Positions 7,240-61,933 are shown, counted from the first letter of the stretch. The stretch: DNA of 64,000 nucleotides from a virus (IMGVR_UViG_3300009784_000001:54418-118417), one strand, 5' to 3'. Numbers and translations: made by a program. The notes: generated by a model not told the origin, from the sequence alone.

Positions 7240-7598
7240 TTCGTTTTGCTTCTGATTCTATCAAATTCAACAATTTCATTAAAATTATTACCATCAATAT
7301 GTGGATATTTTATTTTTAAAACATCAATATCAACCATCAAATTATTCATTTCTTCATCAGAAAAGGAAGAAATTAATGCCAAATGTTTACTATCCCATTT
7401 CTTATAAAATTCATAAGCAGCACTATTTTTTGGCAATAACCTTTCCTGTGCCTGACCTCCCCCTGCATAATCAGTCCTTCTGTAATTTAATTGATTAGCA
7501 ACTGTGGAAAAATATTCGTCACTATTTTTTCTGTAAGACTGCCCTCCTACTTCCACTTCAAAAAATATCCTTTTCTTTACTCTAAAACTTACTGTCAT
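7236..7598 (-). CDS. hypothetical protein (120 aa)
   Basis: Track ORF. Promoter at 7635-7695 lies upstream. Confidence 0.5.
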   Translation of the reverse strand: MTVSFRVKKRIFFEVEVGGQSYRKNSDEYFSTVANQLNYRRTDYAGGGQAQERLLPKNSAAYEFYKKWDSKHLALISSFSDEEMNNLMVDIDVLKIKYPHIDGNNFNEIVEFDRIRSKTN

Positions 7599-46915: not shown

Positions 46916-47009
46916 TTAATTTTATTAAAAATGATACAAAGATATGAAAAAAAAATGAATATACAAAATTTTTTATTTTACTATATATTTATGAGTAAAT
47001 ATTATTATA

Positions 47010-48548
47010 ATGAATATACCAACAAATTTAAAAGTTATACAAAGTGGCAATATGCCCAATTCTACTACTTTAACCTCTGGACAAATAGCATTTGGAAAAA
47101 TAGGGGGGGGGGGTAATATAAGATTGTTTATGAATGATGGTTCTGCTATAACAGAACTATCAGATATTTTTGTTCCTTATGGAAATAAATTAAGTTCTTC
47201 TTCTCCTTTACCTATTGGCCCTAATAGTACTGTTAATGGCTTTGGAGGAATTGCAATAGGTTATAACTCAAGTGCAGCAGGAGGTTTATTAAGTACTGGC
47301 CCAATTGCAATAGGTTTTAATGCAGTTTCATCTATTAATTCAATAGCAATAGGGTACTTTGCTAATGCAGCAGCAAATACTTCAGTTGTTATAGGTTTTA
47401 ATGCAAGTCAAGATGCTACAAGTCAACCAGGAAATTCAGTTATAATTGGAAGTGGAGCACATGGCTATGCCACTCTTTATAATTCTGGAAATAGTAGTTT
47501 TAGTGGGCAGGGAGTTATAATAGGATCTAATGCAAGTGGAACATGGAAAAATGTAACAGTTATTGGCTATGGAGCGAAAGCTGATCCTACTGCAAATACA
47601 AGTTTACCAATTATTAATGCAAATGGAGCAGATTATGCTCTTTCTATTGGCGCTTGGACAAATGCTTTAGCTAGTGGAGCGATAGCTGTTGGTGGAACTG
47701 CTAATGCAGATGGCAGTATATGTATTGGAAGTGCATGTGATGAAGTTAATGGAATTGCAATAGGAAATTCCTCTCGTGTTATGTCAGGTGCAAATAGTGG
47801 AATTTCAATAGGATATTATTCAAATGCAATTTCACCTAATACAGTGGCAATAGGAAGTTTTGCAATTGCTGGACTAAACGCTTCTTATGGAATAGCTATT
47901 GGAAGAGGAGCACTTCTTCAAAATAGTAATTCAGGAATAGCTATTGGGCTAAATAGTGGTGCAGTTAATTCATCTGCACTTGTTTTAGGTACTCAAAGTA
48001 GTGCTAATGGATTACAAGCATTAGCTATTGGTACAGGTACACAAGCTATTGGTTTAAATACAATAGCAATAGGAACTAGTGTAGTAGCAAATAATACAGG
48101 ATGTATTGCGATAGGAGCAGGAGCAGTTGTGTCCAGTGCAAATACAATGCAGTTAGGAAGTTCAGCTCTTGTAACTGTTTATCGAGGAGCAGGAACAGCT
48201 ACAGCATTTAATACAACATCAGATGAACGTATCAAAGAAAACATAGTTGAAGCAAACACAACAATATGTTTAAGTGATGCCAACAGGTTAAAAGTCAAAC
48301 GATTTTCATATAAAGATTTTGTAAATAGTACTGGTGATAAAACTGTAACTGGGTTTATAGCGCAGGATTTTAGGGAGGTATTTCCAAAGCAAGTAAGTGA
48401 GGTGAAGAAAGTGTATCAAGTTGAAGGAAAAGAAGATGTTGTATTTGAAGATTTGTTAAGCATTGATACATCGCAGGTTATTTATACATTGGTAGGAGCT
48501 ATTCAGGAACTGACGAAACGGATAGAACAATTAGAAAACAAATCATAA
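47010..48548 (+). CDS. tail fibre protein with Gly/Ala/Ser-rich IAIG repeats and a C-terminal intramolecular-chaperone (peptidase S74-like) domain
   Basis: Repeats are of the AIGxN/SIAIGY type. The C-terminal TSDERIKENIVE matches the S...DxRxK autoprocessing signature. The gene is on the plus strand and contains a G11 tract at 47103-47113. Confidence 0.7.
   Translation: MNIPTNLKVIQSGNMPNSTTLTSGQIAFGKIGGGGNIRLFMNDGSAITELSDIFVPYGNKLSSSSPLPIGPNSTVNGFGGIAIGYNSSAAGGLLSTGPIAIGFNAVSSINSIAIGYFANAAANTSVVIGFNASQDATSQPGNSVIIGSGAHGYATLYNSGNSSFSGQGVIIGSNASGTWKNVTVIGYGAKADPTANTSLPIINANGADYALSIGAWTNALASGAIAVGGTANADGSICIGSACDEVNGIAIGNSSRVMSGANSGISIGYYSNAISPNTVAIGSFAIAGLNASYGIAIGRGALLQNSNSGIAIGLNSGAVNSSALVLGTQSSANGLQALAIGTGTQAIGLNTIAIGTSVVANNTGCIAIGAGAVVSSANTMQLGSSALVTVYRGAGTATAFNTTSDERIKENIVEANTTICLSDANRLKVKRFSYKDFVNSTGDKTVTGFIAQDFREVFPKQVSEVKKVYQVEGKEDVVFEDLLSIDTSQVIYTLVGAIQELTKRIEQLENKS
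47103..47113 (+). repeat. G11 homopolymeric tract inside the tail-fibre ORF (encodes GGGG)
   Basis: Eleven consecutive G in a very AT-rich genome, 94 nt into the ORF. The upstream alternative-frame ORF 46931-47116 ends in this tract. Confidence 0.9.
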
Positions 48549-48557
48549 TTAATAAAA

Positions 48558-48598
48558 AAATCCCAATCTTTCGGTTGGGATTTTCTATTATATTTTTT
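48558..48598 (+). terminator. bidirectional intrinsic terminator
   Basis: Stem AATCCCAA/TTGGGATT with T-runs on both sides, directly after the tail-fibre stop. Confidence 0.6.
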
Positions 48599-48889
48599 TT
48601 TATTTTTATGAGGTCTATCATAAGATATAAAGCCAATATGAGTTTCAAGTTCTATTTCTCTTGAAACTTTTTTGTTCATTTTCAATATGTCTTGTTTTGT
48701 AATTTTCATATTATATTTTTAATATATTGTCTAATTTTATGATTTAAACTTCCACGAGATACTGTTGTGTTCATTTCTTCCCACCAGTTAATATGTCCCT
48801 CTTTCTTCAATCTACCATGTATGTAATCTTGTTTAGAAGGAAAATTAATTTTTTTAACACGCCCAAACGGTTTCATATTTATTTATTTG

Positions 48890-51551: not shown

Positions 51552-52781
51552 TTATTTTATGTAATTTATTAATTCATTAACATCAAAAAATACATTTTCT
51601 TTTTGATATATATTACTAAATAAGGGATTGTTATAATATTCATCTTTAAATTCATTTCTATTAACAAAATATAATAAATGGATATTATTTTCTTTGGATA
51701 AATTATACTTTTCAATATCTCTTTTTATCACTTCATTTAATTTATTTCCAAAATAATTTATTTTGTAAAGATGTTGTCCACCTTGACATTCAATTAATAT
51801 ATTTTTTCGAGGTAAATAAAAATCAAATTTAAACCTTTTGGCAAAACAAAGTATTTTTTTATTGCATTCTTCAATATATTCTATTTTATTTTGTTCTAAT
51901 TCTATTCTAATTTTTGTTTGTAATTTTGATGTTTTACATTTTAAACATCCATGATAATTTAAATGTCCTCTTGGAACTTGCCAAAATTCCCCATGTTCTG
52001 GGCAAATTATGCAAACAGGAGTAGAATCATTAATATAATTAACTTTGGAATAATTATACCTATCTCCATGAATTTTTTTAGCATCCTGTATAAATTGTTC
52101 AGTTGTTTTTCTTTTTTCTATCCCTCTATAAATAGATTCAATTTGTCTTGGTATTCTGCCTTTATAATGATGACTTGCAAATTCCCAAAATTCACCAAAT
52201 TCTTTTCCTGTATTTGGATTTATAGTATGATCAATAATACATATTTTTTTATCACTTCCTTTATATATTAATTTACTATAATCAAAACGATTTTTATGAA
52301 TTTCATTACATTTTTTAATAAATTCTTTTTGAGCTATACGTTTATTTATTCCTCTTTTTATATAAGAGCTTTTTTCATTTTCACTTCCACGTAAATGACT
52401 ATTAGGAGTTTGCCAAAATTCGCCAAATTCTTTTCCTGTATTTGGATTTATAGTATGATCAATAATACATATTTTAGTAGATGCGCTAATATATTCTATT
52501 TTGGAATAATCATACCTATCTCCATGAATTTTTTTAGCATCTTGTATAAATTGTTCAGTTGTTTTTCTTTGTTTATTATGTTTTATATCATTCATACATT
52601 TTAAACAATTCCTTCCTTCTAAATGACGGGAAGGAGTTTGCCAAAATTCTCCATGTTGGGAACAAATAATACAAACTTTTGTTTTATTATTTATGTATTC
52701 AACTTTACTATAATTATACTTATCCCCATGTATTTGTTTAGCCTTTTGAATAAATTGTTCTGTTGTTAAAGATTTAGACAT
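51552..52781 (-). CDS. repeat-containing putative endonuclease (4 zinc-binding repeats of about 65 aa plus a C-terminal PD-(D/E)xK-like domain)
   Basis: Four repeats of TTEQFIQ.AK.IHGD.Y.YSK..Y......K.CIIC..HGEFWQ.P..HL.G..C.KC. The C-terminus FDFYLPRKNILIECQGGQH resembles a DUF559/Vsr-like nuclease core. Confidence 0.45.
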   Translation of the reverse strand: MSKSLTTEQFIQKAKQIHGDKYNYSKVEYINNKTKVCIICSQHGEFWQTPSRHLEGRNCLKCMNDIKHNKQRKTTEQFIQDAKKIHGDRYDYSKIEYISASTKICIIDHTINPNTGKEFGEFWQTPNSHLRGSENEKSSYIKRGINKRIAQKEFIKKCNEIHKNRFDYSKLIYKGSDKKICIIDHTINPNTGKEFGEFWEFASHHYKGRIPRQIESIYRGIEKRKTTEQFIQDAKKIHGDRYNYSKVNYINDSTPVCIICPEHGEFWQVPRGHLNYHGCLKCKTSKLQTKIRIELEQNKIEYIEECNKKILCFAKRFKFDFYLPRKNILIECQGGQHLYKINYFGNKLNEVIKRDIEKYNLSKENNIHLLYFVNRNEFKDEYYNNPLFSNIYQKENVFFDVNELINYIK

Positions 52782-52864: not shown

Positions 52865-55800
52865 TTATGAACAAGCTGACCATCCGCAATTAGTACATTT
52901 TTTACATCCATTTTCATATATAATAGAATTTGTTAATCCACATTCAGGACAAGTTTCATTAATATTACCTTCTTTTTTCTCTAAATATCTATTTAAGATT
53001 CTTGCACAAACACTGCTGAATGAAGTAATACTATCATCATACTTTTTGAAGGTTTTAATAATATATTCAAGTCCTATTCCATGCCTTAATTCTAATGAAG
53101 TACGAGTACAATGCCTTTTTTCTTCTTCACTGTTAAATTCTGTTAAGTTAGGAATTGTGATAAATTCTGAATCAAATTTATATAAGTTCTTTTTTATTTT
53201 TGTTATTGTACCTCTATGTTCTTTTATTTTATTAAAGGAGGTTTTTAATTCAATATTTTCAAGTGTTGGGATGAAACAAAATAATTCATAAGGCATTTCG
53301 CAATATAAACCAATGATAATAATATAATTTTGACCTTTATATTTTATTTTATAAAAATCACTAGTTAATGTTTTTGGACGTTTAGGAGCATTATGTGTTG
53401 CAAAGTCTTTACAAGGATCGTCATTTTTTTTATCTGTTGCCACTAAAACACCACTTCGAGAACCTTCTCTATATATTGTACAACCTTTTAAGTTATATTT
53501 GAATACATTTTTATAAATTTCATCTACTTCTTTAATAGTTACATTTTGAGGAAGATTAATTGTAGATGAAATGGAAGAAGTTATAAATTCTTGTATTAAT
53601 CCTTGTATTTTAACTCTTTCAACCCAATTAATATCATTTGCAGTTTGTTTATAGTATGGTGATTCTTCATAAACTCTTTGCCAATCTGTATTTTCCCACC
53701 CATTATATTCATTTAAACCTCTACTAGCAAGAAAATATTCTTTTAATTTTGGATGAACAACAACAAATTCCTTAAATCCTTTACCATTTTCATCAATGTA
53801 ATCGGCAGTTTCTCCTGGGGTTAATACTCTTCTTCTTACATAAAATGGTAAAAATAATGGTTCAATACCAGAAGTAGTTTGAGTCATTACTGATACTGTG
53901 CCAGTTGGGGCTAATGTACTAATTCCCGAATTTCTTCTTCCATATTTTAGCATTCTTATAGTTTGAGAAGGAAATTCATCAATAATAAATTGATACCATT
54001 CATTATTTCCTATTAAATCAATATATGTATTTTCACTATCTGAAACTTCATGAAACTCTTTATTTTTATCCCATAATGGAAATGTACCTTTCAAAATAGC
54101 TAAATCAATAGAAGCATCCAATTCATTTTCAAGTTTTAATTTCATCACCTTTTGAAGTATGTCAAAATCTCCATAAGGCTTATTTAACGCTGCAAACATA
54201 TCACCTAAAGCTGTGTAACCAGTTCCTGTTCTTCTACCTAAAGAACCTATATTTTTTATTTCTTCCCACAATTTAATTTCAAGTTTTTTACTCTTTGAAC
54301 TTTTTGATAAAAGTAATAAAATTCTATCAACTGCTTCAATTTCTAAGTCAACAATTAAATCAGTCATAACTTGAATTTCATAAAAAATCTCTTTCATCAA
54401 ATCCTTGTCAATAGAACTATTTTCTGTAAAGGGGGAAGATACCATTGAGTAAAGATTAGTAGCCATTAAACGACATGAATCTTTTGGAGCCAAACTTAAT
54501 TCACCACATGGATTTGTAGATACGGCTTTGAGTTCTTTATATATTGATGTGGGGTCATAATTTATCATTCTATCCCAATTTAAAAATCCTGGTTCGGCAT
54601 GATTTCTATTGGAATAAACAAATTCATCCCATATTTCTTTTGCTTTTACCATTTTTATATAACCTTTATGAGTACCATCAATATTAACCAGATTGTATAA
54701 GTGATTATATAAAAAGTAATCTTTTTTAATATGTTCTATATTATATTTCAAAACTTCTTCATCAATTTTTAAATCACAAGGAAATCTCAATATATAATCT
54801 TCATCATTTTCAAGTGCTTGCATAAATTCATCATTAAATTTAATAGATATGTTAGCATTTGTTATAGCATTTGTATTTTGTTTACATTTAATAAAATCTA
54901 ATATATCAGGATGATTGATATCCATTGAAATCATCATAGCCATTTTACGACTTGATTGCCCTATAATTTTGCCTATTACATCATATATTTGCATCCAATC
55001 AACAGGACCAGAAGAAATTTTTGCTGAATTATTAACAGCAGCATTATTGGGTCTTAAATTTGAAATGTCAATACCACAATTATGAATGTTAACAAACCCA
55101 AAATTACTACCACAATAATAATTATTATTATCTTCAACAACTATATCTATATATTTATATTTTATATTATTATCTTCTATTATAGATTTTACTTGAGTTC
55201 TCGATAGTATTTCAAATAATTTAGAATTATTAATTAAACCAATTTTATTAAACAAATATAATGCAGCTTTTCCACATGATCTTTCTTTATTTAAATTAAT
55301 TCTGTTAGCTTTAAATAAATTATATTCTCTTTTATTAAGTCCCAAAGAAGATATTTTTACATTATTTATTAATTCTATCTCTTCATTAAGAAGTTTTATT
55401 TTCCCAGATTGATGCCTATAACTTCTTTCTTTCATCCTATTTAATTTATCTGGATGAATTACATAATTCATTATTTCAGTATATATATCAGAATCTTTAT
55501 AGATATGTAATCTATATAAATTATTTTCATTATTTTTTTTAGGATATCTAATATTTACACTATATCTTTGACCAATTGAAGATAAATAAAATGATATATC
55601 ATCAATAGCATTTTTTGAAGTTATATCAATATCAATTTTACCTTCCTTTCTAATATGACCATCAGAATCAATTAAGCCAGCAAGAAATGGTATCCACAAA
55701 TTATTTTTATTTATAAAATTTGGAACACTCCAAGTATATGTTTTTTTATTAATTTGATTATCTAAAAAATTATCTATAATATAAACACCATCTATACTTG

Positions 55801-56851
55801 AAACTCTAAATTCCCAACATTCGCTTTTATAAGATTTTCTTTTAACTTTTGTAACTAATGATATATTTTCATTATTAATCATTTTTGAAAAAATACTCCT
55901 ATATTTTTCAATAATCTCTTTATTGTTTCCAATAATACTAAAAACACCAGCATAATATCCATATTGTTTTGGAATAGTTAGTCTAGCTGAACCATCACCC
56001 ATATGACAACCAATCCACCAACCAATTTCATCATAATTATTTAAAATATGCTTATATGATTTACCAGAAATAGTTTTATTAAATGTTTTGTCTAATAAAC
56101 CGCTATTATAATTTTCATATCCATATTCCTTTTCTTTTAATACTAATAATGGATGTTTTTTTGATGTTTTTAAATTAATACCATTATTATATTGTATATC
56201 TATTTGTTCATTTTGTAAAACTTCTGTATAAAATTTATCTGTAATTTTTTTCCATTCATCAATTTTAGCATTAATATTAAAACTTAAAACCATATCACCA
56301 ATATTTACATCTTTTATTGGTATAATACCTTTATCTTTCACTAAAATTTTTGAATTTTCTTCAACACAACCCCCACGGCGTTTTCCTACTTGCCCCATTT
56401 CCATAACAGAAATTAGAATATCCTCAATAGAATCTTCTACTGCATCAACTACAAAACAATTGGAAATTGAAGTAGGAGAATTTGTTCCTAAGTTTTCCAT
56501 TATTGAACCACCTGGAATTATATATCTATATCCTTTCAAATAAAAATAAAAATGTTCCTCTAATTCTTCTAATGTTGCATTTTTTAATTTATCAAAACGT
56601 TTTTTTCCAGTATCAGATAATAATTCATATTTGGTTTTATCTATTTTTTGAAAATAATTAAATTCTATTCTTGCAAATTCTTTAGCATATCTTCTATGAC
56701 TATCATCAGGAGTTAATTCACATAAATTTTTATTTTCATCTTTTAAACAATACTTTTTAATCCATGTAGTTGTAGCTAATTCATCATTGTTAAAGTACTT
56801 GAGGGTGGCATTGTAAACCTCATCATAACTATAATTTTTATTTTCGATCAT
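52865..56851 (-). CDS. ribonucleotide reductase large subunit, class II-like, interrupted by an intein
   Basis: Active-site STNPCGELSL, finger loop SGPVDWM and a C-terminal Cys cluster. There is no ATP cone. The track start at 56857 is TTG; the ATG is at 56851. Confidence 0.85.
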   Translation of the reverse strand: MIENKNYSYDEVYNATLKYFNNDELATTTWIKKYCLKDENKNLCELTPDDSHRRYAKEFARIEFNYFQKIDKTKYELLSDTGKKRFDKLKNATLEELEEHFYFYLKGYRYIIPGGSIMENLGTNSPTSISNCFVVDAVEDSIEDILISVMEMGQVGKRRGGCVEENSKILVKDKGIIPIKDVNIGDMVLSFNINAKIDEWKKITDKFYTEVLQNEQIDIQYNNGINLKTSKKHPLLVLKEKEYGYENYNSGLLDKTFNKTISGKSYKHILNNYDEIGWWIGCHMGDGSARLTIPKQYGYYAGVFSIIGNNKEIIEKYRSIFSKMINNENISLVTKVKRKSYKSECWEFRVSSIDGVYIIDNFLDNQINKKTYTWSVPNFINKNNLWIPFLAGLIDSDGHIRKEGKIDIDITSKNAIDDISFYLSSIGQRYSVNIRYPKKNNENNLYRLHIYKDSDIYTEIMNYVIHPDKLNRMKERSYRHQSGKIKLLNEEIELINNVKISSLGLNKREYNLFKANRINLNKERSCGKAALYLFNKIGLINNSKLFEILSRTQVKSIIEDNNIKYKYIDIVVEDNNNYYCGSNFGFVNIHNCGIDISNLRPNNAAVNNSAKISSGPVDWMQIYDVIGKIIGQSSRKMAMMISMDINHPDILDFIKCKQNTNAITNANISIKFNDEFMQALENDEDYILRFPCDLKIDEEVLKYNIEHIKKDYFLYNHLYNLVNIDGTHKGYIKMVKAKEIWDEFVYSNRNHAEPGFLNWDRMINYDPTSIYKELKAVSTNPCGELSLAPKDSCRLMATNLYSMVSSPFTENSSIDKDLMKEIFYEIQVMTDLIVDLEIEAVDRILLLLSKSSKSKKLEIKLWEEIKNIGSLGRRTGTGYTALGDMFAALNKPYGDFDILQKVMKLKLENELDASIDLAILKGTFPLWDKNKEFHEVSDSENTYIDLIGNNEWYQFIIDEFPSQTIRMLKYGRRNSGISTLAPTGTVSVMTQTTSGIEPLFLPFYVRRRVLTPGETADYIDENGKGFKEFVVVHPKLKEYFLASRGLNEYNGWENTDWQRVYEESPYYKQTANDINWVERVKIQGLIQEFITSSISSTINLPQNVTIKEVDEIYKNVFKYNLKGCTIYREGSRSGVLVATDKKNDDPCKDFATHNAPKRPKTLTSDFYKIKYKGQNYIIIIGLYCEMPYELFCFIPTLENIELKTSFNKIKEHRGTITKIKKNLYKFDSEFITIPNLTEFNSEEEKRHCTRTSLELRHGIGLEYIIKTFKKYDDSITSFSSVCARILNRYLEKKEGNINETCPECGLTNSIIYENGCKKCTNCGWSACS
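55079..56368 (-). mobile_element. intein (430 aa) with a double-motif LAGLIDADG homing endonuclease, inside the RNR gene
   Basis: Begins CVEENSKILVKDKG and ends VNIHN followed by a +1 Cys. HE motifs are GWWIGCHMGDGS and FLAGLIDSDGHI. Codons at both junctions were checked on the sequence: Cys is tgt at 56368-56366 and Asn is aat at 55081-55079. Confidence 0.85.
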
Positions 56852-56985
56852 AAACAATATTTGTAAATTTTATTTTTTGGTAAGAAATAAATACTATCAA
56901 ATGTACCAAAATAATCTGATTTTTTTTAATTTTATTTTAAAACTCTGTTAAACAAAAGTATATTTTTTAAAATAAAAACACAACA

Positions 56986-60253: not shown

Positions 60254-61933
60254 TTAATTTAATTTTAATTCTTCAAATGTTGTTGTTATTTCAGGCTTAT
60301 TTAATCCTGTTGATAATGGAAATTTAATTGTTGGATAAGGATTATAATCATTAATTAAAAATGATTTTGAAGATAATAAAGTAAATAACTCTGTTAATTC
60401 TTCACTCTCATATATTTTTTTATCTTTAAGTTTATTTTCAACAATTTCTAAAAATTTATTTGTATTCTTATCTCCATAATTCCAATCTAACCAAGGTAAT
60501 TTTCTTGGTTCTCTTTGTAATTGTTCTAAACATCCTTCAATTTGATTTTCATATAGATGACAAGAATTACCATGCCATTTAAATTTACCTGGCTTATAGC
60601 CTGTAATTTTAGCTAATATATGTAGTAAAAAGGCGTAACTTGCTATATTAAATGGCAACCCTAAAGCCCAATCTACGCTGCGTTGTACCATTAATAAATC
60701 TAAAAATTCTCCTTTTCTAATATTGGTAGAAAATAAAATATGACAAGGAGGTAAACAAACTTCATTATTTTCTAAAACCATTGGATCCCAGGACAAAACT
60801 TGTTGGTATCTAGAATTTGGATTTGATAATATCAAATTAATTAAATTTTTAATTTGATCAATACCATTATCTATATTTTTTCTAACTAATGTAAATCCTT
60901 TATATGATTTATCATTACCACTTAACAAACTATAAAAAGAATCTTCGTTCAAATTATTTTTTTTAACAAATAAAGGAACATTATCTATTAAATATTCAAA
61001 GCCATCTTTATTTTTAATAATATATTTTTTATGTTGAGTAGATATATTTTCCATTTTAGTGGCAAATTTACATGTTGTTTTAGAATACAATAAACCATTT
61101 CCATTAATATCTTTATCTAATTCATATAATTTCCATTGTTTTATTTTTAATTCATAGTTTGGTATATCTTTAATATCCTCCAAAAAATATTCAAAACATT
61201 TCCATCTATTGGATACTCTTACTCCTCTTCCCCCATAATTTTTATATCCAATATTATTTTCATTATAACATCTATCAATCATATGTTCCCATATTTTTTT
61301 AAATTTTATTGTCAAAATATCTTTTTTATTATATATACCAGTACAAGCCACATTTAAATATTTTGGAAAATAAGGATCATAAATACTTCTATCTTTTATA
61401 TGTTCTTCTCTAATAGCTGTTTTATATCCAGTATTTAAAAAATAAATTTCAAATATTTTATGCCTATTTTCTAAATAACATAAATTAGATCTTACAAAAT
61501 CTCCATAATTTTTACTATGGTATATTTCCAAATTCATATTTTCTGGAATGTCATTCAATTTAATAGTAAATGGTTTTTTATCAGGATAACCTATTATTTT
61601 TTTTGCACCAAAACTGCGCCAAAAATAGGGATAAGATTTCCCTAAAATAGTTGCACTTTCTTTATCCCATCTTTTAACATCATCATCCCATATATGACAA
61701 TTATTTTCATGTAAATATTCTAATGTTACTTTCCCTTTTAGAAAAAAAATTAATTCACTAATTATGCCTTTTGTATACATTTTTTTTGTTGTAAGTAAAG
61801 GAAATCCATCATTCATATCAAATTCTAAATCCAAAACAAAAAGTTCACGTGTTCTTGGCATGTTTTCTCTAGCTGGATCTTTAATATCGCCATTTACCAG
61901 AATTTCTTTCATTAAATCTAAATATTGTTTCAT
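60254..61933 (-). CDS. thyA: thymidylate synthase (ThyA family) with a large in-frame insertion
   Basis: N-terminus MKQYLDLMKEIL...FPLLTTKK and C-terminal LPPCHILF...QRSVDWALGLPFNIASYAFLLH...REPRKLP. A conserved Asn in PFN indicates uracil specificity. The protein is 559 aa against about 264 aa for the E. coli enzyme. Confidence 0.85.
   Translation of the reverse strand: MKQYLDLMKEILVNGDIKDPARENMPRTRELFVLDLEFDMNDGFPLLTTKKMYTKGIISELIFFLKGKVTLEYLHENNCHIWDDDVKRWDKESATILGKSYPYFWRSFGAKKIIGYPDKKPFTIKLNDIPENMNLEIYHSKNYGDFVRSNLCYLENRHKIFEIYFLNTGYKTAIREEHIKDRSIYDPYFPKYLNVACTGIYNKKDILTIKFKKIWEHMIDRCYNENNIGYKNYGGRGVRVSNRWKCFEYFLEDIKDIPNYELKIKQWKLYELDKDINGNGLLYSKTTCKFATKMENISTQHKKYIIKNKDGFEYLIDNVPLFVKKNNLNEDSFYSLLSGNDKSYKGFTLVRKNIDNGIDQIKNLINLILSNPNSRYQQVLSWDPMVLENNEVCLPPCHILFSTNIRKGEFLDLLMVQRSVDWALGLPFNIASYAFLLHILAKITGYKPGKFKWHGNSCHLYENQIEGCLEQLQREPRKLPWLDWNYGDKNTNKFLEIVENKLKDKKIYESEELTELFTLLSSKSFLINDYNPYPTIKFPLSTGLNKPEITTTFEELKLN
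60863..61603 (-). other. in-frame inserted domain of about 247 aa within thyA carrying an HNH-family homing-endonuclease-like module
   Basis: WEHMIDRCYNENNIGYKNYGGRGVRVSNRW ... ELDKDINGNGLLYSKTTCKFATKMEN matches the W..M..RC.N...Y.NYGGRGI.V / LDRID..G.Y..NC.W pattern of phage HNH-type endonucleases. It sits in the ThyA small-domain variable loop, after YPYFWRSFGA. There are no intein splice motifs. Confidence 0.55.

What the first reader, a model, noticed from the sequence alone, without database searches (positions are those of the whole stretch)
47010..47116. G11 homopolymer 94 nt into the tail-fibre ORF, a possible phase-variation or slippage switch
Eleven consecutive G occur at 47103-47113, encoding GGGG, in a strongly AT-biased genome. 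Such a tract is very unlikely by chance and is a classic slipped-strand mispairing substrate. As G11 it keeps the long tail-fibre frame open. G10 or G12 would truncate the fibre after about 35 residues, or link it to the upstream alternative frame that ends exactly in the tract (46931-47116). This could generate an ON/OFF or N-terminal-variant receptor-binding protein within a phage population. It is also a likely hotspot for sequencing error.
Basis: seen in the sequence. Interest (0 to 1): 0.65.

Follow-up and report, generated by a model that had tools for sequence, protein, structure and literature searches.

The report
PolyG on/off switches in phage fibres
A run of eleven G's near the start of a phage fibre gene is real, and the same run sits at the same spot in two sister genes of this 360-kb phage and in a related termite-gut phage, where its length breaks the reading frame, so it most likely works as a slippage switch that turns individual fibres on or off.

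Summary
G11 lies at 47103-47113, 94 nt into a 512-aa fibre ORF, in 26% GC DNA where about 1e-4 such runs are expected. Homologues without the run read through this site in the same frame and with the same length, so G11 is the in-frame ON state.

The window comes from a 359,962-bp T4-like jumbo phage contig. Two sister genes on that contig carry an uninterrupted G run at the same codons of the same N-terminal domain. Their lengths, G13 and G9, break the frame. A relative from a termite-gut virome has G9, also out of frame. All three out-of-frame bodies stay open for 155-803 codons (chance 5e-7 to 2e-30). A fourth sister gene has the run interrupted (GGGGGAGGA).

In about 125 kb of the genome that I read, the only G/C runs of 7 or more are these three. 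GGG makes up 11% of glycine codons. The run encodes a hairpin turn that varies freely across the family.

Best reading: slipped-strand contingency switches on fibre genes, as shown for Campylobacter phages. This is a new member of a known kind. No reads were available, so switching within a population is not shown. The N-terminal-variant idea is not supported.

The parts
47103..47113 (+). G11 homopolymer, the proposed slippage switch. It is in frame here (ON) and encodes G32-G35.
   Evidence: The homologous tracts are G13 (L012 10112-10124), G9 (L017 7573-7581) and G9 (L010 3600-3608).
47010..48548 (+). Fibre gene, 512 aa. It is the only clear + strand gene in a long block of - strand genes.
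   Evidence: Pfam Peptidase_S74 scores 46.7 bits (cut-off 22) and YadA_head 25.5 bits (cut-off 25). PHROG tail fiber families. PDB sequence hits to the MYRF intramolecular chaperone domain (7dc3), YadA (1p9h) and the Ata adhesin (3wp8).
47010..47174 (+). Conserved N-terminal domain (PTNLKV...L.sGq[IM]AFGK-loop-IRLF.ND...EL), shared by at least four genes of this phage. It is the presumed virion-docking module, and the tract encodes the turn of its beta-hairpin.
   Evidence: Alignments A2, A3 and A4. A profile search gave 234 family members. The loop varies in sequence and length. The AF2 model has strands 26-30 and 37-42 with pLDDT 77-86 over residues 11-50.
47114..47121 (+). Stop codons met at once in both shifted frames: TAA 47114-47116 after a +1 change (G12), and GTA ATA TAA ending at 47121 after a -1 change (G10).
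   Evidence: The same G-run followed by TAA[TC] is present at all four tracts.
48219..48545 (+). C-terminal Peptidase_S74 intramolecular-chaperone domain (residues 404-512, motif TSDERIKEN). It is 86% identical to the paralogue, against 45% for the middle repeats.
46985..46993 (+). ATATTTATG, 17 nt upstream of the ATG. It matches a motif (ATATTTATR) found 16-30 nt upstream of the prohead protease, gp23 and the other fibre genes, and is a putative late promoter.
   Evidence: The motif is enriched in the head module L012 (12 matches against 4.2 expected) but not in the window overall.
48555..48586 (.). 12-bp terminator-like hairpin directly after the fibre stop codon, readable on both strands.

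Best explanation
The G11 run is one of a set of slipped-strand contingency switches built into the fibre genes of an uncultivated 360-kb T4-like jumbo phage.

At least four genes of this phage share one N-terminal domain, presumably the part that docks the fibre on the virion. They carry different distal parts. In three of them, the codons for the turn of a beta-hairpin in that domain are an uninterrupted G run: G11 here, G13 in the 843-aa paralogue in the head-gene cluster, and G9 in a 192-aa paralogue near the DNA polymerase.

During replication, polymerase slippage adds or removes a G. Lengths of 8, 11 or 14 keep the frame and only change the number of glycines in a tolerant loop. All other lengths stop translation within two codons of the run's end, giving a 34-43 residue peptide. 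Each fibre would therefore be switched ON or OFF heritably, reversibly and independently, so one genome yields a mixed population of virions with different fibre sets. In the assembled majority genotype this gene is ON and the other two are OFF.

Shown: the tracts, their homologous position, their different lengths, the frame consequences, the intact bodies of the OFF alleles, and the rarity of such runs and of GGG codons.

Inferred: that length varies within populations at a high rate, that the proteins are receptor-binding or adhesive fibres, and that switching is selected as bet-hedging.
For: (1) Frame and length across the tract are validated by tract-less homologues from the same sample (P0014/L003: FGKINGTGNIRLF).

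(2) The paralogue has G13. Its ORF ends as ...GEMVFGKIGGGGVM*, while the next frame reads GGGGNVRLFVNWDGTAVSELP... and stays open for 803 codons to the Peptidase_S74 end (chance 2e-30).

(3) A third paralogue has G9...GQMAFGKIGGG*, with the body NIRLFVNDGSGV... open for 155 codons.

(4) Contig LSPZ01000050.1 from a Coptotermes formosanus gut virome (MiSeq, SPAdes) has G9 at the same codons, with the body open for 254 codons.

(5) About 125 kb of the contig was read. The G/C run-length counts over the first ~104 kb are 123 runs of 4, 17 of 5 and 6 of 6, and then only G11 and G13. The further 20.8 kb of L017 has a single run of 6 or more, the G9. All three long runs lie in this loop.

(6) GGG makes up 11% of glycine codons, so three in a row has P about 0.0014. 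At conserved flanking residues, about 40% of codons differ synonymously between paralogues, yet the run persists.

(7) Interrupted versions exist in a fourth paralogue (P0142, GTT GGG GGA GGA) and in P0131 (ATA GGG GGA GGA). A stable encoding of the same loop is therefore available.

(8) Among 100 family representatives with the motif, the only three truncated at the loop are the three poly-G ones.

(9) The three tract lengths are the same in the ENA and JGI assemblies, and in Logan for G11.

(10) Precedent: Campylobacter Fletchervirus phages express receptor-binding proteins phase-variably through polyG tracts (Sorensen et al. 2021 Cell Rep 35:109214, as described in PMC8713573 and PMC10579305). 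Mononucleotide repeats in T2 and T4 behave as reversible contingency loci (PMC12633550).
Against: No reads were available, so length heterogeneity within a population, the defining behaviour, is not shown. Every assembly of this sample gives a single length per tract.

Three of four uninterrupted tracts are out of frame. That fits random slippage, where one length in three is in frame. It would also fit recoding at the RNA or ribosome level, or a systematic length error at long G runs.

The termite virome DNA was amplified before sequencing.

The fibre or receptor-binding role rests on domain homology only. The host is unknown. Only about 35% of the genome was inspected.
Confidence: 0.7

Rival explanations
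1. Recoding rather than DNA switching. The runs are decoded by transcriptional slippage (RNA polymerase adding or dropping G on a 9-13 nt homopolymer) or by ribosomal frameshifting. Out-of-frame alleles would then still yield some full-length fibre, and tract length would set the amount rather than ON or OFF.
For: Three of four tracts are out of frame, yet their bodies are intact. Both G9 alleles read GGG GGG GGG TAA, a stop directly after a slippery run. A run as long as the RNA-DNA hybrid permits realignment (established knowledge, mainly for A/T runs).
Against: The shift needed differs between alleles: none for G11, -1 or +2 for G13, +1 or -2 for G9. Programmed sites keep one direction. No downstream structure is shared. 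There is a hairpin after the window tract (z -3.6), a different one in the paralogue and L010, and none in the L017 G9 gene (z +0.7). All begin 17 nt or more after the run, too far for a -1 stimulator. DNA slippage at such runs is unavoidable in any case, so this can add to the DNA switch but not replace it.
Confidence: 0.15
2. Non-adaptive mutational hotspot. A glycine-rich, permissive loop allowed G runs to expand by slippage. The frameshifted copies are simply broken or dispensable genes, and the mutability is a hazard rather than a selected switch.
For: The loop tolerates any sequence and length. Most tract alleles are OFF. In coliphages, simple repeats are under-represented in tail-fibre genes (0.77x, PMC12633550), which shows that they are normally a liability.
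Against: The OFF bodies show no decay: no stops in 155-803 codons. The run is kept in three paralogues and one relative despite about 40% synonymous divergence at neighbouring conserved codons and a strong preference for GGA and GGT. Interrupted encodings exist in the family, so purging would take a single synonymous change.
Confidence: 0.12
3. Sequencing or assembly length error. The runs are real, but all are in frame in the phage, and G13 and G9 are miscounts of G11/G14 and G8/G11.
For: Long G homopolymers are error-prone. All data here are short-read assemblies, and one dataset was amplified. Logan has no contig carrying the 43-aa OFF peptide of the G13 gene.
Against: The ENA (MEGAHIT) and JGI assemblies give the same products at all three tracts, and Logan agrees on G11. 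G9 was obtained independently on MiSeq with SPAdes in another study. G13 would need a 2-nt error to reach G11, or a 1-nt error to reach G14. Homopolymers of 9 are usually called correctly by Illumina consensus (own knowledge).
Confidence: 0.08

Closest known systems
PolyG-tract phase-variable receptor-binding proteins of Campylobacter Fletchervirus phages (Sorensen et al. 2021, Cell Rep 35:109214; described in PMC8713573 and PMC10579305)
   Same: Both are low-GC myovirus-type phages with several receptor-binding or fibre genes. Some of those genes carry an intragenic polyG tract whose length sets ON or OFF, giving phenotypically mixed phage populations.
   Different: There is no sequence relationship. 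The phage collection gave no nucleotide match, and no Campylobacter phage appears among the listed fibre or gp23 hits. This is a 360-kb uncultivated phage whose only traceable relative comes from a termite-gut virome, and it has a different fibre family (YadA-like repeats plus Peptidase_S74). The tract sits at one conserved hairpin turn of a shared N-terminal domain in all copies. Switching has not been shown experimentally.
Bacterial contingency loci (homopolymeric tracts in surface-structure genes of Campylobacter, Haemophilus and Neisseria; e.g. PMC5808241 and PMC2831843)
   Same: Both have a mononucleotide repeat early in an ORF and frameshift-based ON/OFF. The target is a surface or interaction protein. 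The repeat is far longer than composition predicts.
   Different: The repeat is carried by a virus and replicated by a phage-encoded family B DNA polymerase (L017 4072-7398). There are several copies at homologous sites of paralogues.
Phage contingency loci in T2 and T4 (A-run repeats in agt and rIIA; Gomez, Barrick and Waters 2025 preprint, PMC12633550)
   Same: Both are T4-type phages in which homopolymer slippage gives reversible frameshifts. Revertants arise at about 1,000- to 10,000-fold the rate of point-mutation controls.
   Different: Those are A runs of 6-9, typical of the genome's composition, in defence-related or accessory genes. Here the runs are G runs of 9-13 in a 26% GC genome and lie in fibre genes. 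That study found fibre genes depleted of repeats.
Other phage tropism switches: Bordetella BPP-1 diversity-generating retroelement (Mtd) and the Mu G / P1 C invertible segments (cited in PMC10579305)
   Same: The outcome is the same: one genome produces virions with alternative host-recognition proteins.
   Different: The mechanisms are different (reverse-transcriptase mutagenesis, site-specific inversion). No retroelement or invertase was noted next to the fibre genes in the gene tables, and I did not search for one.
Programmed -1 frameshift sites in phage tail genes (lambda G/GT type)
   Same: Both have a slippery run inside a structural gene, with two reading frames in play.
   Different: The direction of shift is not conserved, no stimulatory structure is conserved, and the shifted frames terminate at once instead of extending the protein.

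Membership tests
Repeat-mediated contingency (phase-variable) locus | Uninterrupted mononucleotide repeat of about 8 nt or more inside, or just upstream of, an ORF | tested here: met
   G11 at 47103-47113, starting at nt 94 of the ORF. Sister tracts are G13, G9 and G9.
Repeat-mediated contingency (phase-variable) locus | A change of one repeat unit shifts the frame and truncates the product | tested here: met
   Simulation of G7-G15 at three loci gives the full product only at G8, G11 and G14, and 34-43 aa otherwise.
Repeat-mediated contingency (phase-variable) locus | Repeat number differs among alleles, paralogues or related genomes, with in-frame and out-of-frame states and otherwise intact genes | tested here: met
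   Lengths are 11 (ON) and 13, 9, 9 (OFF). OFF bodies are open for 803, 155 and 254 codons, with chance 2e-30 to 5e-7.
Repeat-mediated contingency (phase-variable) locus | Repeat far in excess of what composition and codon usage predict | tested here: met
   Expected about 1e-4 per window. GGG is 11% of glycine codons. The only G/C runs of 7 or more in about 125 kb are the three tracts.
Repeat-mediated contingency (phase-variable) locus | High-frequency, reversible length variation within a population | not testable with these tools
   No reads were accessible, and the assemblies give one length per tract.
Campylobacter phage polyG receptor-binding protein system (Fletchervirus) | Homology of the phage or of the receptor-binding protein genes to Fletchervirus or Firehammervirus | tested here: not met
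   No megablast match in the phage collection. Listed tblastn hits for the fibre and for gp23 are to other phage groups. No phage record matches the N-terminal domain.
Campylobacter phage polyG receptor-binding protein system (Fletchervirus) | PolyG tract inside receptor-binding or fibre genes, with several such genes per genome | tested here: met
   Three tract-bearing genes and one interrupted paralogue on one contig. The fibre role itself is inferred from domains.
Peptidase_S74 (intramolecular chaperone) fibre or spike proteins | C-terminal S74 domain above Pfam's gathering score | tested here: met
   46.7 bits against a cut-off of 22, residues 404-462, profile positions 1-57 of 58. PDB sequence hit to the MYRF intramolecular chaperone domain 7dc3, E 6e-8.
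Peptidase_S74 (intramolecular chaperone) fibre or spike proteins | Autocleavage Ser with Lys five residues downstream | tested here: inconclusive
   The motif S-D-E-R-I-K is present at the start of the domain. Its correspondence to the catalytic dyad of endosialidase rests on my own knowledge and was not aligned here.
YadA-like head repeat (left-handed beta-roll) adhesins | YadA_head repeats above threshold | tested here: inconclusive
   PF05658 scores 25.5 bits against a cut-off of 25. Weak PDB sequence hits to YadA 1p9h and Ata 3wp8. No membrane anchor domain was found.
Programmed ribosomal frameshift site | One conserved shift direction and a conserved stimulatory structure 5-9 nt downstream | tested here: not met
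   The required shifts differ between alleles. Downstream hairpins are not conserved and lie 17 nt or more away.
T4-like phage | gp23-type capsid protein, gp20-type portal and gp21-type prohead protease in one head module | tested here: met
   PF07068, PF07230 and PF03420 on the same contig. gp23 is 35-41% identical to T4-type capsid proteins.

The most novel reading that the evidence does not exclude
The shared N-terminal docking domain with a built-in polyG switch is a portable module. One jumbo phage carries at least three independently switchable fibre genes, plus a fourth with the run locked by GGA interruptions, and all would compete for the same virion site. A single genome could then produce up to eight fibre combinations. 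This would be the first combinatorial contingency system described outside Campylobacter phages, and in an uncultivated gut jumbo phage. Tract-bearing and locked versions would represent evolutionary gain and loss of switchability.
Probability: 0.4. Interest if true: 0.75.

Novelty: new member of a known kind. Interest (0 to 1): 0.62.

Why it matters
PolyG phase variation of phage host-recognition proteins has been demonstrated only in Campylobacter phages, and a 2025 preprint still describes contingency loci as new for phages.

Here the same design appears in an unrelated, uncultivated 360-kb phage. The switch is placed at one conserved structural loop and copied across paralogues. This suggests that stochastic fibre switching is a more general phage strategy and that it can be recognised from sequence alone.

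There is also a practical consequence. Gene callers split the OFF alleles into a 36-43 aa stub and an N-terminally truncated protein, as with the 634-aa call for an 843-aa gene. Such switches are therefore hidden in metagenome annotations, and fibre repertoires are under-counted.

Tried and rejected
(1) Alternative N-terminus from ORF 46931-47116. The arithmetic is right for G10 and G13, but the frame is not conserved. The paralogue and L010 have no ATG in it. The ORF would start 16 nt from the divergent upstream gene, and the conserved start is MNIPTNLKV at 47010.

(2) Poly-G read-tail artefact. Rejected because the run is internal, matches the homologue in length, and recurs in MiSeq data.

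(3) Frameshift-stimulating or terminator hairpin after the tract. It is present in the window (47135-47162, z -3.6) but is not homologous in the paralogue or L010 and is absent in the L017 G9 gene.

(4) Close relatives with other tract lengths. Exact flank patterns and a degenerate FGKI+G8 pattern found nothing in IMG/VR. Protein-based scans of IMG/VR found only distant C-terminal matches or nothing. The GenBank phage collection has no match to the locus or to the N-terminal domain.

(5) A full-length ON version of the G9 gene (P0184) in another assembly. None is in the protein collection.

(6) Solved structures for the N-terminal domain. None were found by sequence.

(7) Other simple repeats in the window. 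Tandem Repeats Finder found nothing comparable.

(8) My first attempt to stitch the loci into contig coordinates was off by one base. This produced a flood of conflict messages. The run-length counts from that call are unaffected apart from possible effects at the joins.

Full report
**Observation**

The sequence shows eleven G at window 47103-47113 on the + strand. They begin at nt 94 of ORF 47010-48548 (512 aa) and are read ATA GGG GGG GGG GGT (I31, G32-G35). The window is 26.2% GC, and G is 10.2% of the + strand. No other G or C run exceeds 6. The expected number of runs this long is about 1e-4. Changing the run length in silico gives the full protein at G8, G11 and G14, and a 34-37 aa stub at every other length from 7 to 15. 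The stop codons lie within eight bases after the run. The observation and its arithmetic are correct.

**What the gene is**

The product has a C-terminal Peptidase_S74 intramolecular-chaperone domain (46.7 bits against a cut-off of 22) and YadA-head-like repeats (25.5 against 25). It matches PHROG tail-fibre families. By sequence it also matches the MYRF chaperone domain, the YadA head and the Ata adhesin among solved structures.

It is the only clear + strand gene in a long block of - strand genes. That block includes a peptidyl-tRNA hydrolase, a DNA methylase, ribonucleotide reductase and thymidylate synthase. The exact protein lies on a 359,962-bp MEGAHIT contig, ena:ERZ27257292:k141_1583612. 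That contig encodes a T4-type portal, prohead protease and gp23 capsid protein. Its gp23 is at most 41% identical to any phage in GenBank. This is an uncultivated T4-like jumbo phage, and it has no nucleotide match in the phage collection.

**Is G11 the right length?**

A homologue from the same sample (P0014, loci L003 and L004) has the same N-terminus (MNIPTNLKVI...GEMAFGKINGTGNIRLFVND). It reads AAC GGG ACA GGA where the window has GGG GGG GGG GGT. Frame and length are thus conserved on both sides of the run. An independent Logan assembly (L008) is identical over 3.5 kb and also has G11. G11 is therefore the in-frame ON state and not a frame-breaking error.

**The decisive finding: sister tracts**

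The 39%-identical paralogue P0002 was called as a 634-aa protein between the portal and the prohead protease. It is in fact preceded by a G13 run at L001 5483-5495, which is L012 10112-10124. Upstream of that run lies a 43-aa ORF, MAQINVPTNLKVTGPSTIQANINTTSLLKGEMVFGKIGGGGVM*. From the run onward, the next frame reads GGGGNVRLFVNWDGTAVSELP... and stays open for 803 codons to the S74 end. At G11 the gene would encode 843 aa.

A profile of the N-terminal domain, searched against 1.84 billion representatives, returned 234 members. Two of them are stubs that end in poly-glycine.

- P0182 belongs to LSPZ01000050.1, a 26-kb contig of a Coptotermes formosanus gut virome (MiSeq, SPAdes; PMC5759034). 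It has G9 at L010 3600-3608, reads ...GEMAFGKIGGG*, and its body is open for 254 codons.
- P0184 lies on a 359,943-bp JGI contig, the same phage. I found it in the ENA contig at L017 7471-7584 with G9 at 7573-7581. Its body, NIRLFVNDGSGVKEING..., is open for 155 codons.

A fourth paralogue on the contig, P0142, is the positional counterpart of the L010 gene. It encodes the loop as GTT GGG GGA GGA, an interrupted run. P0131, on a bacterial-looking contig, does the same.

**Why this is not chance or decay**

- I read about 125 kb of the 360 kb (window, L012, L013, L014, L017). Over the first ~104 kb the G/C run-length counts are 123 runs of 4, 17 of 5 and 6 of 6, and then only G11 and G13. L017 adds 20.8 kb whose only run of 6 or more is the G9. 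All three long runs lie at the same loop.
- GGG is 11% of glycine codons, so three in a row has P about 0.0014.
- Between paralogues, about 40% of the codons for conserved flanking residues differ synonymously, yet the run persists.
- The out-of-frame bodies have chance probabilities of staying open of 2e-30, 5e-7 and 2e-9. The off-frames of the window gene itself contain 46-51 stops.
- Among 100 family representatives carrying the GE[ML]AFG motif, only the three poly-G genes are truncated at the loop.

**Why the site tolerates a switch**

The run encodes the turn between two strands, residues 26-30 and 37-42, in an AF2 model with pLDDT 77-86 there. Across the family this turn varies freely in sequence and length: INGTG, VPSGSKD, VPGSGK, AIGTATVATG, VGGVA and others. 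In-frame length changes would only add or remove a glycine.

The window protein and the 843-aa paralogue share the N-terminal domain (38 of 56 residues identical) and the C-terminal chaperone (102 of 119). Their middle repeats are 45% identical. This is the pattern expected of alternative fibres that dock in the same place and bind different things. That last step is inference.

**Mechanism**

The best-supported reading is slipped-strand mispairing during phage DNA replication, giving heritable and reversible ON/OFF states for each fibre gene. The phage encodes its own family B polymerase (L017 4072-7398). Homopolymer slippage in T4-type phages is classical knowledge (the Streisinger model, from my own knowledge). 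It was recently quantified for A runs in T2 and T4, where reversion was about 1,000- to 10,000-fold that of point mutations (PMC12633550). In the majority genotype of this sample, the window gene is ON and the G13 and G9 genes are OFF. The same products appear in the ENA and JGI assemblies.

**Rivals**

- Recoding by transcriptional slippage or ribosomal frameshifting could make the OFF alleles leaky. However, the required shift differs between alleles (none, -1 or +2, +1 or -2), and no downstream structure is conserved. At most this adds to a DNA switch.
- A non-adaptive hotspot is argued against by the intact OFF bodies, the retention of the run against codon preference, and the existence of interrupted encodings.
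- Miscounted lengths cannot be excluded without reads. They are made less likely by concordant assemblers and by an independent MiSeq dataset.

**Comparison with what is known**

The closest system is the polyG-controlled receptor-binding proteins of Campylobacter Fletchervirus phages (Sorensen et al. 2021, as described in PMC8713573, PMC10579305 and PMC10877375). The present case works like it but is not a member of that lineage. It meets every testable criterion of a repeat-mediated contingency locus. The one criterion left is variation within a population, which needs reads. I rate it a new member of a known kind. Its notable features are the placement of the switch at one conserved hairpin turn of a shared domain, its presence in three paralogues of one jumbo phage, and a relative from a termite-gut virome. 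The N-terminal-variant idea is not.

**Limits**

The host is unknown. A termite-gut origin for the window's own sample is only inferred from its relative. The fibre role and docking site are inferred from domains. Only about 35% of the genome was seen.

Noticed in passing
window 46985-46993; L012 7953, 9977, 12622, 15281, 17384, 19734; L003, L010, L011 and L017 upstream of the fibre genes: The motif ATATTTATR lies 16-30 nt upstream of the start codons of the gene after the portal, the prohead protease, gp23, a GIY-YIG gene and most of the fibre-family genes; the L017 G9 gene has the variant ATATTTATT. It is enriched in the head module (12 matches against 4.2 expected) but not in the window overall. 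It is probably this phage's late promoter, which would make the isolated + strand fibre gene a late gene.
   Followed up: partly
L012 10001-12534 (same as L001 5372-7905): Public gene calls split the 843-aa paralogue into a 43-aa ORF and a 634-aa protein that starts at an internal ATG, leaving 168 codons uncalled. The L017 G9 gene is likewise called only as an 88-aa C-terminal fragment. Poly-G OFF alleles are therefore invisible in the annotations.
   Followed up: yes
window 47135-47162: An 11-bp hairpin followed by GATATTTTTG lies 22 nt after the tract (fold z-score -3.6) and was flagged as terminator-like. It could in principle terminate transcription when translation stops at the tract. However, the paralogue and L010 have a different hairpin, and the L017 G9 gene has none.
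   Followed up: partly
window 52865-56857 and 60254-61933: The ribonucleotide reductase large subunit is 1330 aa and has LAGLIDADG/Hom_end hits, so it looks intein-containing. Thymidylate synthase is 559 aa with an HNH endonuclease inserted. Free-standing HNH and GIY-YIG genes lie nearby. The genome is rich in homing elements.
   Followed up: no
window 52044-52653: A 228-nt unit is repeated 2.7 times (67% matches) inside the 409-aa HNH endonuclease gene 51552-52781.
   Followed up: no
L018/L019 3001-4902: A 633-aa protein (P0131) has the same phage-fibre N-terminal domain, with an interrupted GGGGGAGGA loop, and beta-propeller-like repeats. It lies on 34% GC contigs next to mreB, mreC and rlmN, in a bacterial context. 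It may be a prophage remnant or a clue to the host.
   Followed up: no
L014 1-5862: A gene of more than 2171 aa on the same contig has ART-PolyVal and InPase domains, so it is a giant polyvalent protein. An 833-aa ClpB-like AAA+ protein lies next to it.
   Followed up: no
window, whole: Composition is strongly strand-asymmetric on the + strand (T 40%, A 34%, C 16%, G 10%), in line with nearly all genes lying on the - strand. No tRNA genes were found in the 64 kb.
   Followed up: no
L015 1859-2754: Another family member (P0121) appears split into two frames about 100 codons in, with no homopolymer at the break. This could be an assembly error or a pseudogene. It shows that not every broken family member is explained by poly-G.
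   Followed up: no
window 48555-48586: A 12-bp hairpin directly after the fibre stop codon is terminator-like on both strands. It lies inside the 3' end of the called convergent 68-aa ORF 48503-48709, which casts doubt on that ORF call.
   Followed up: no
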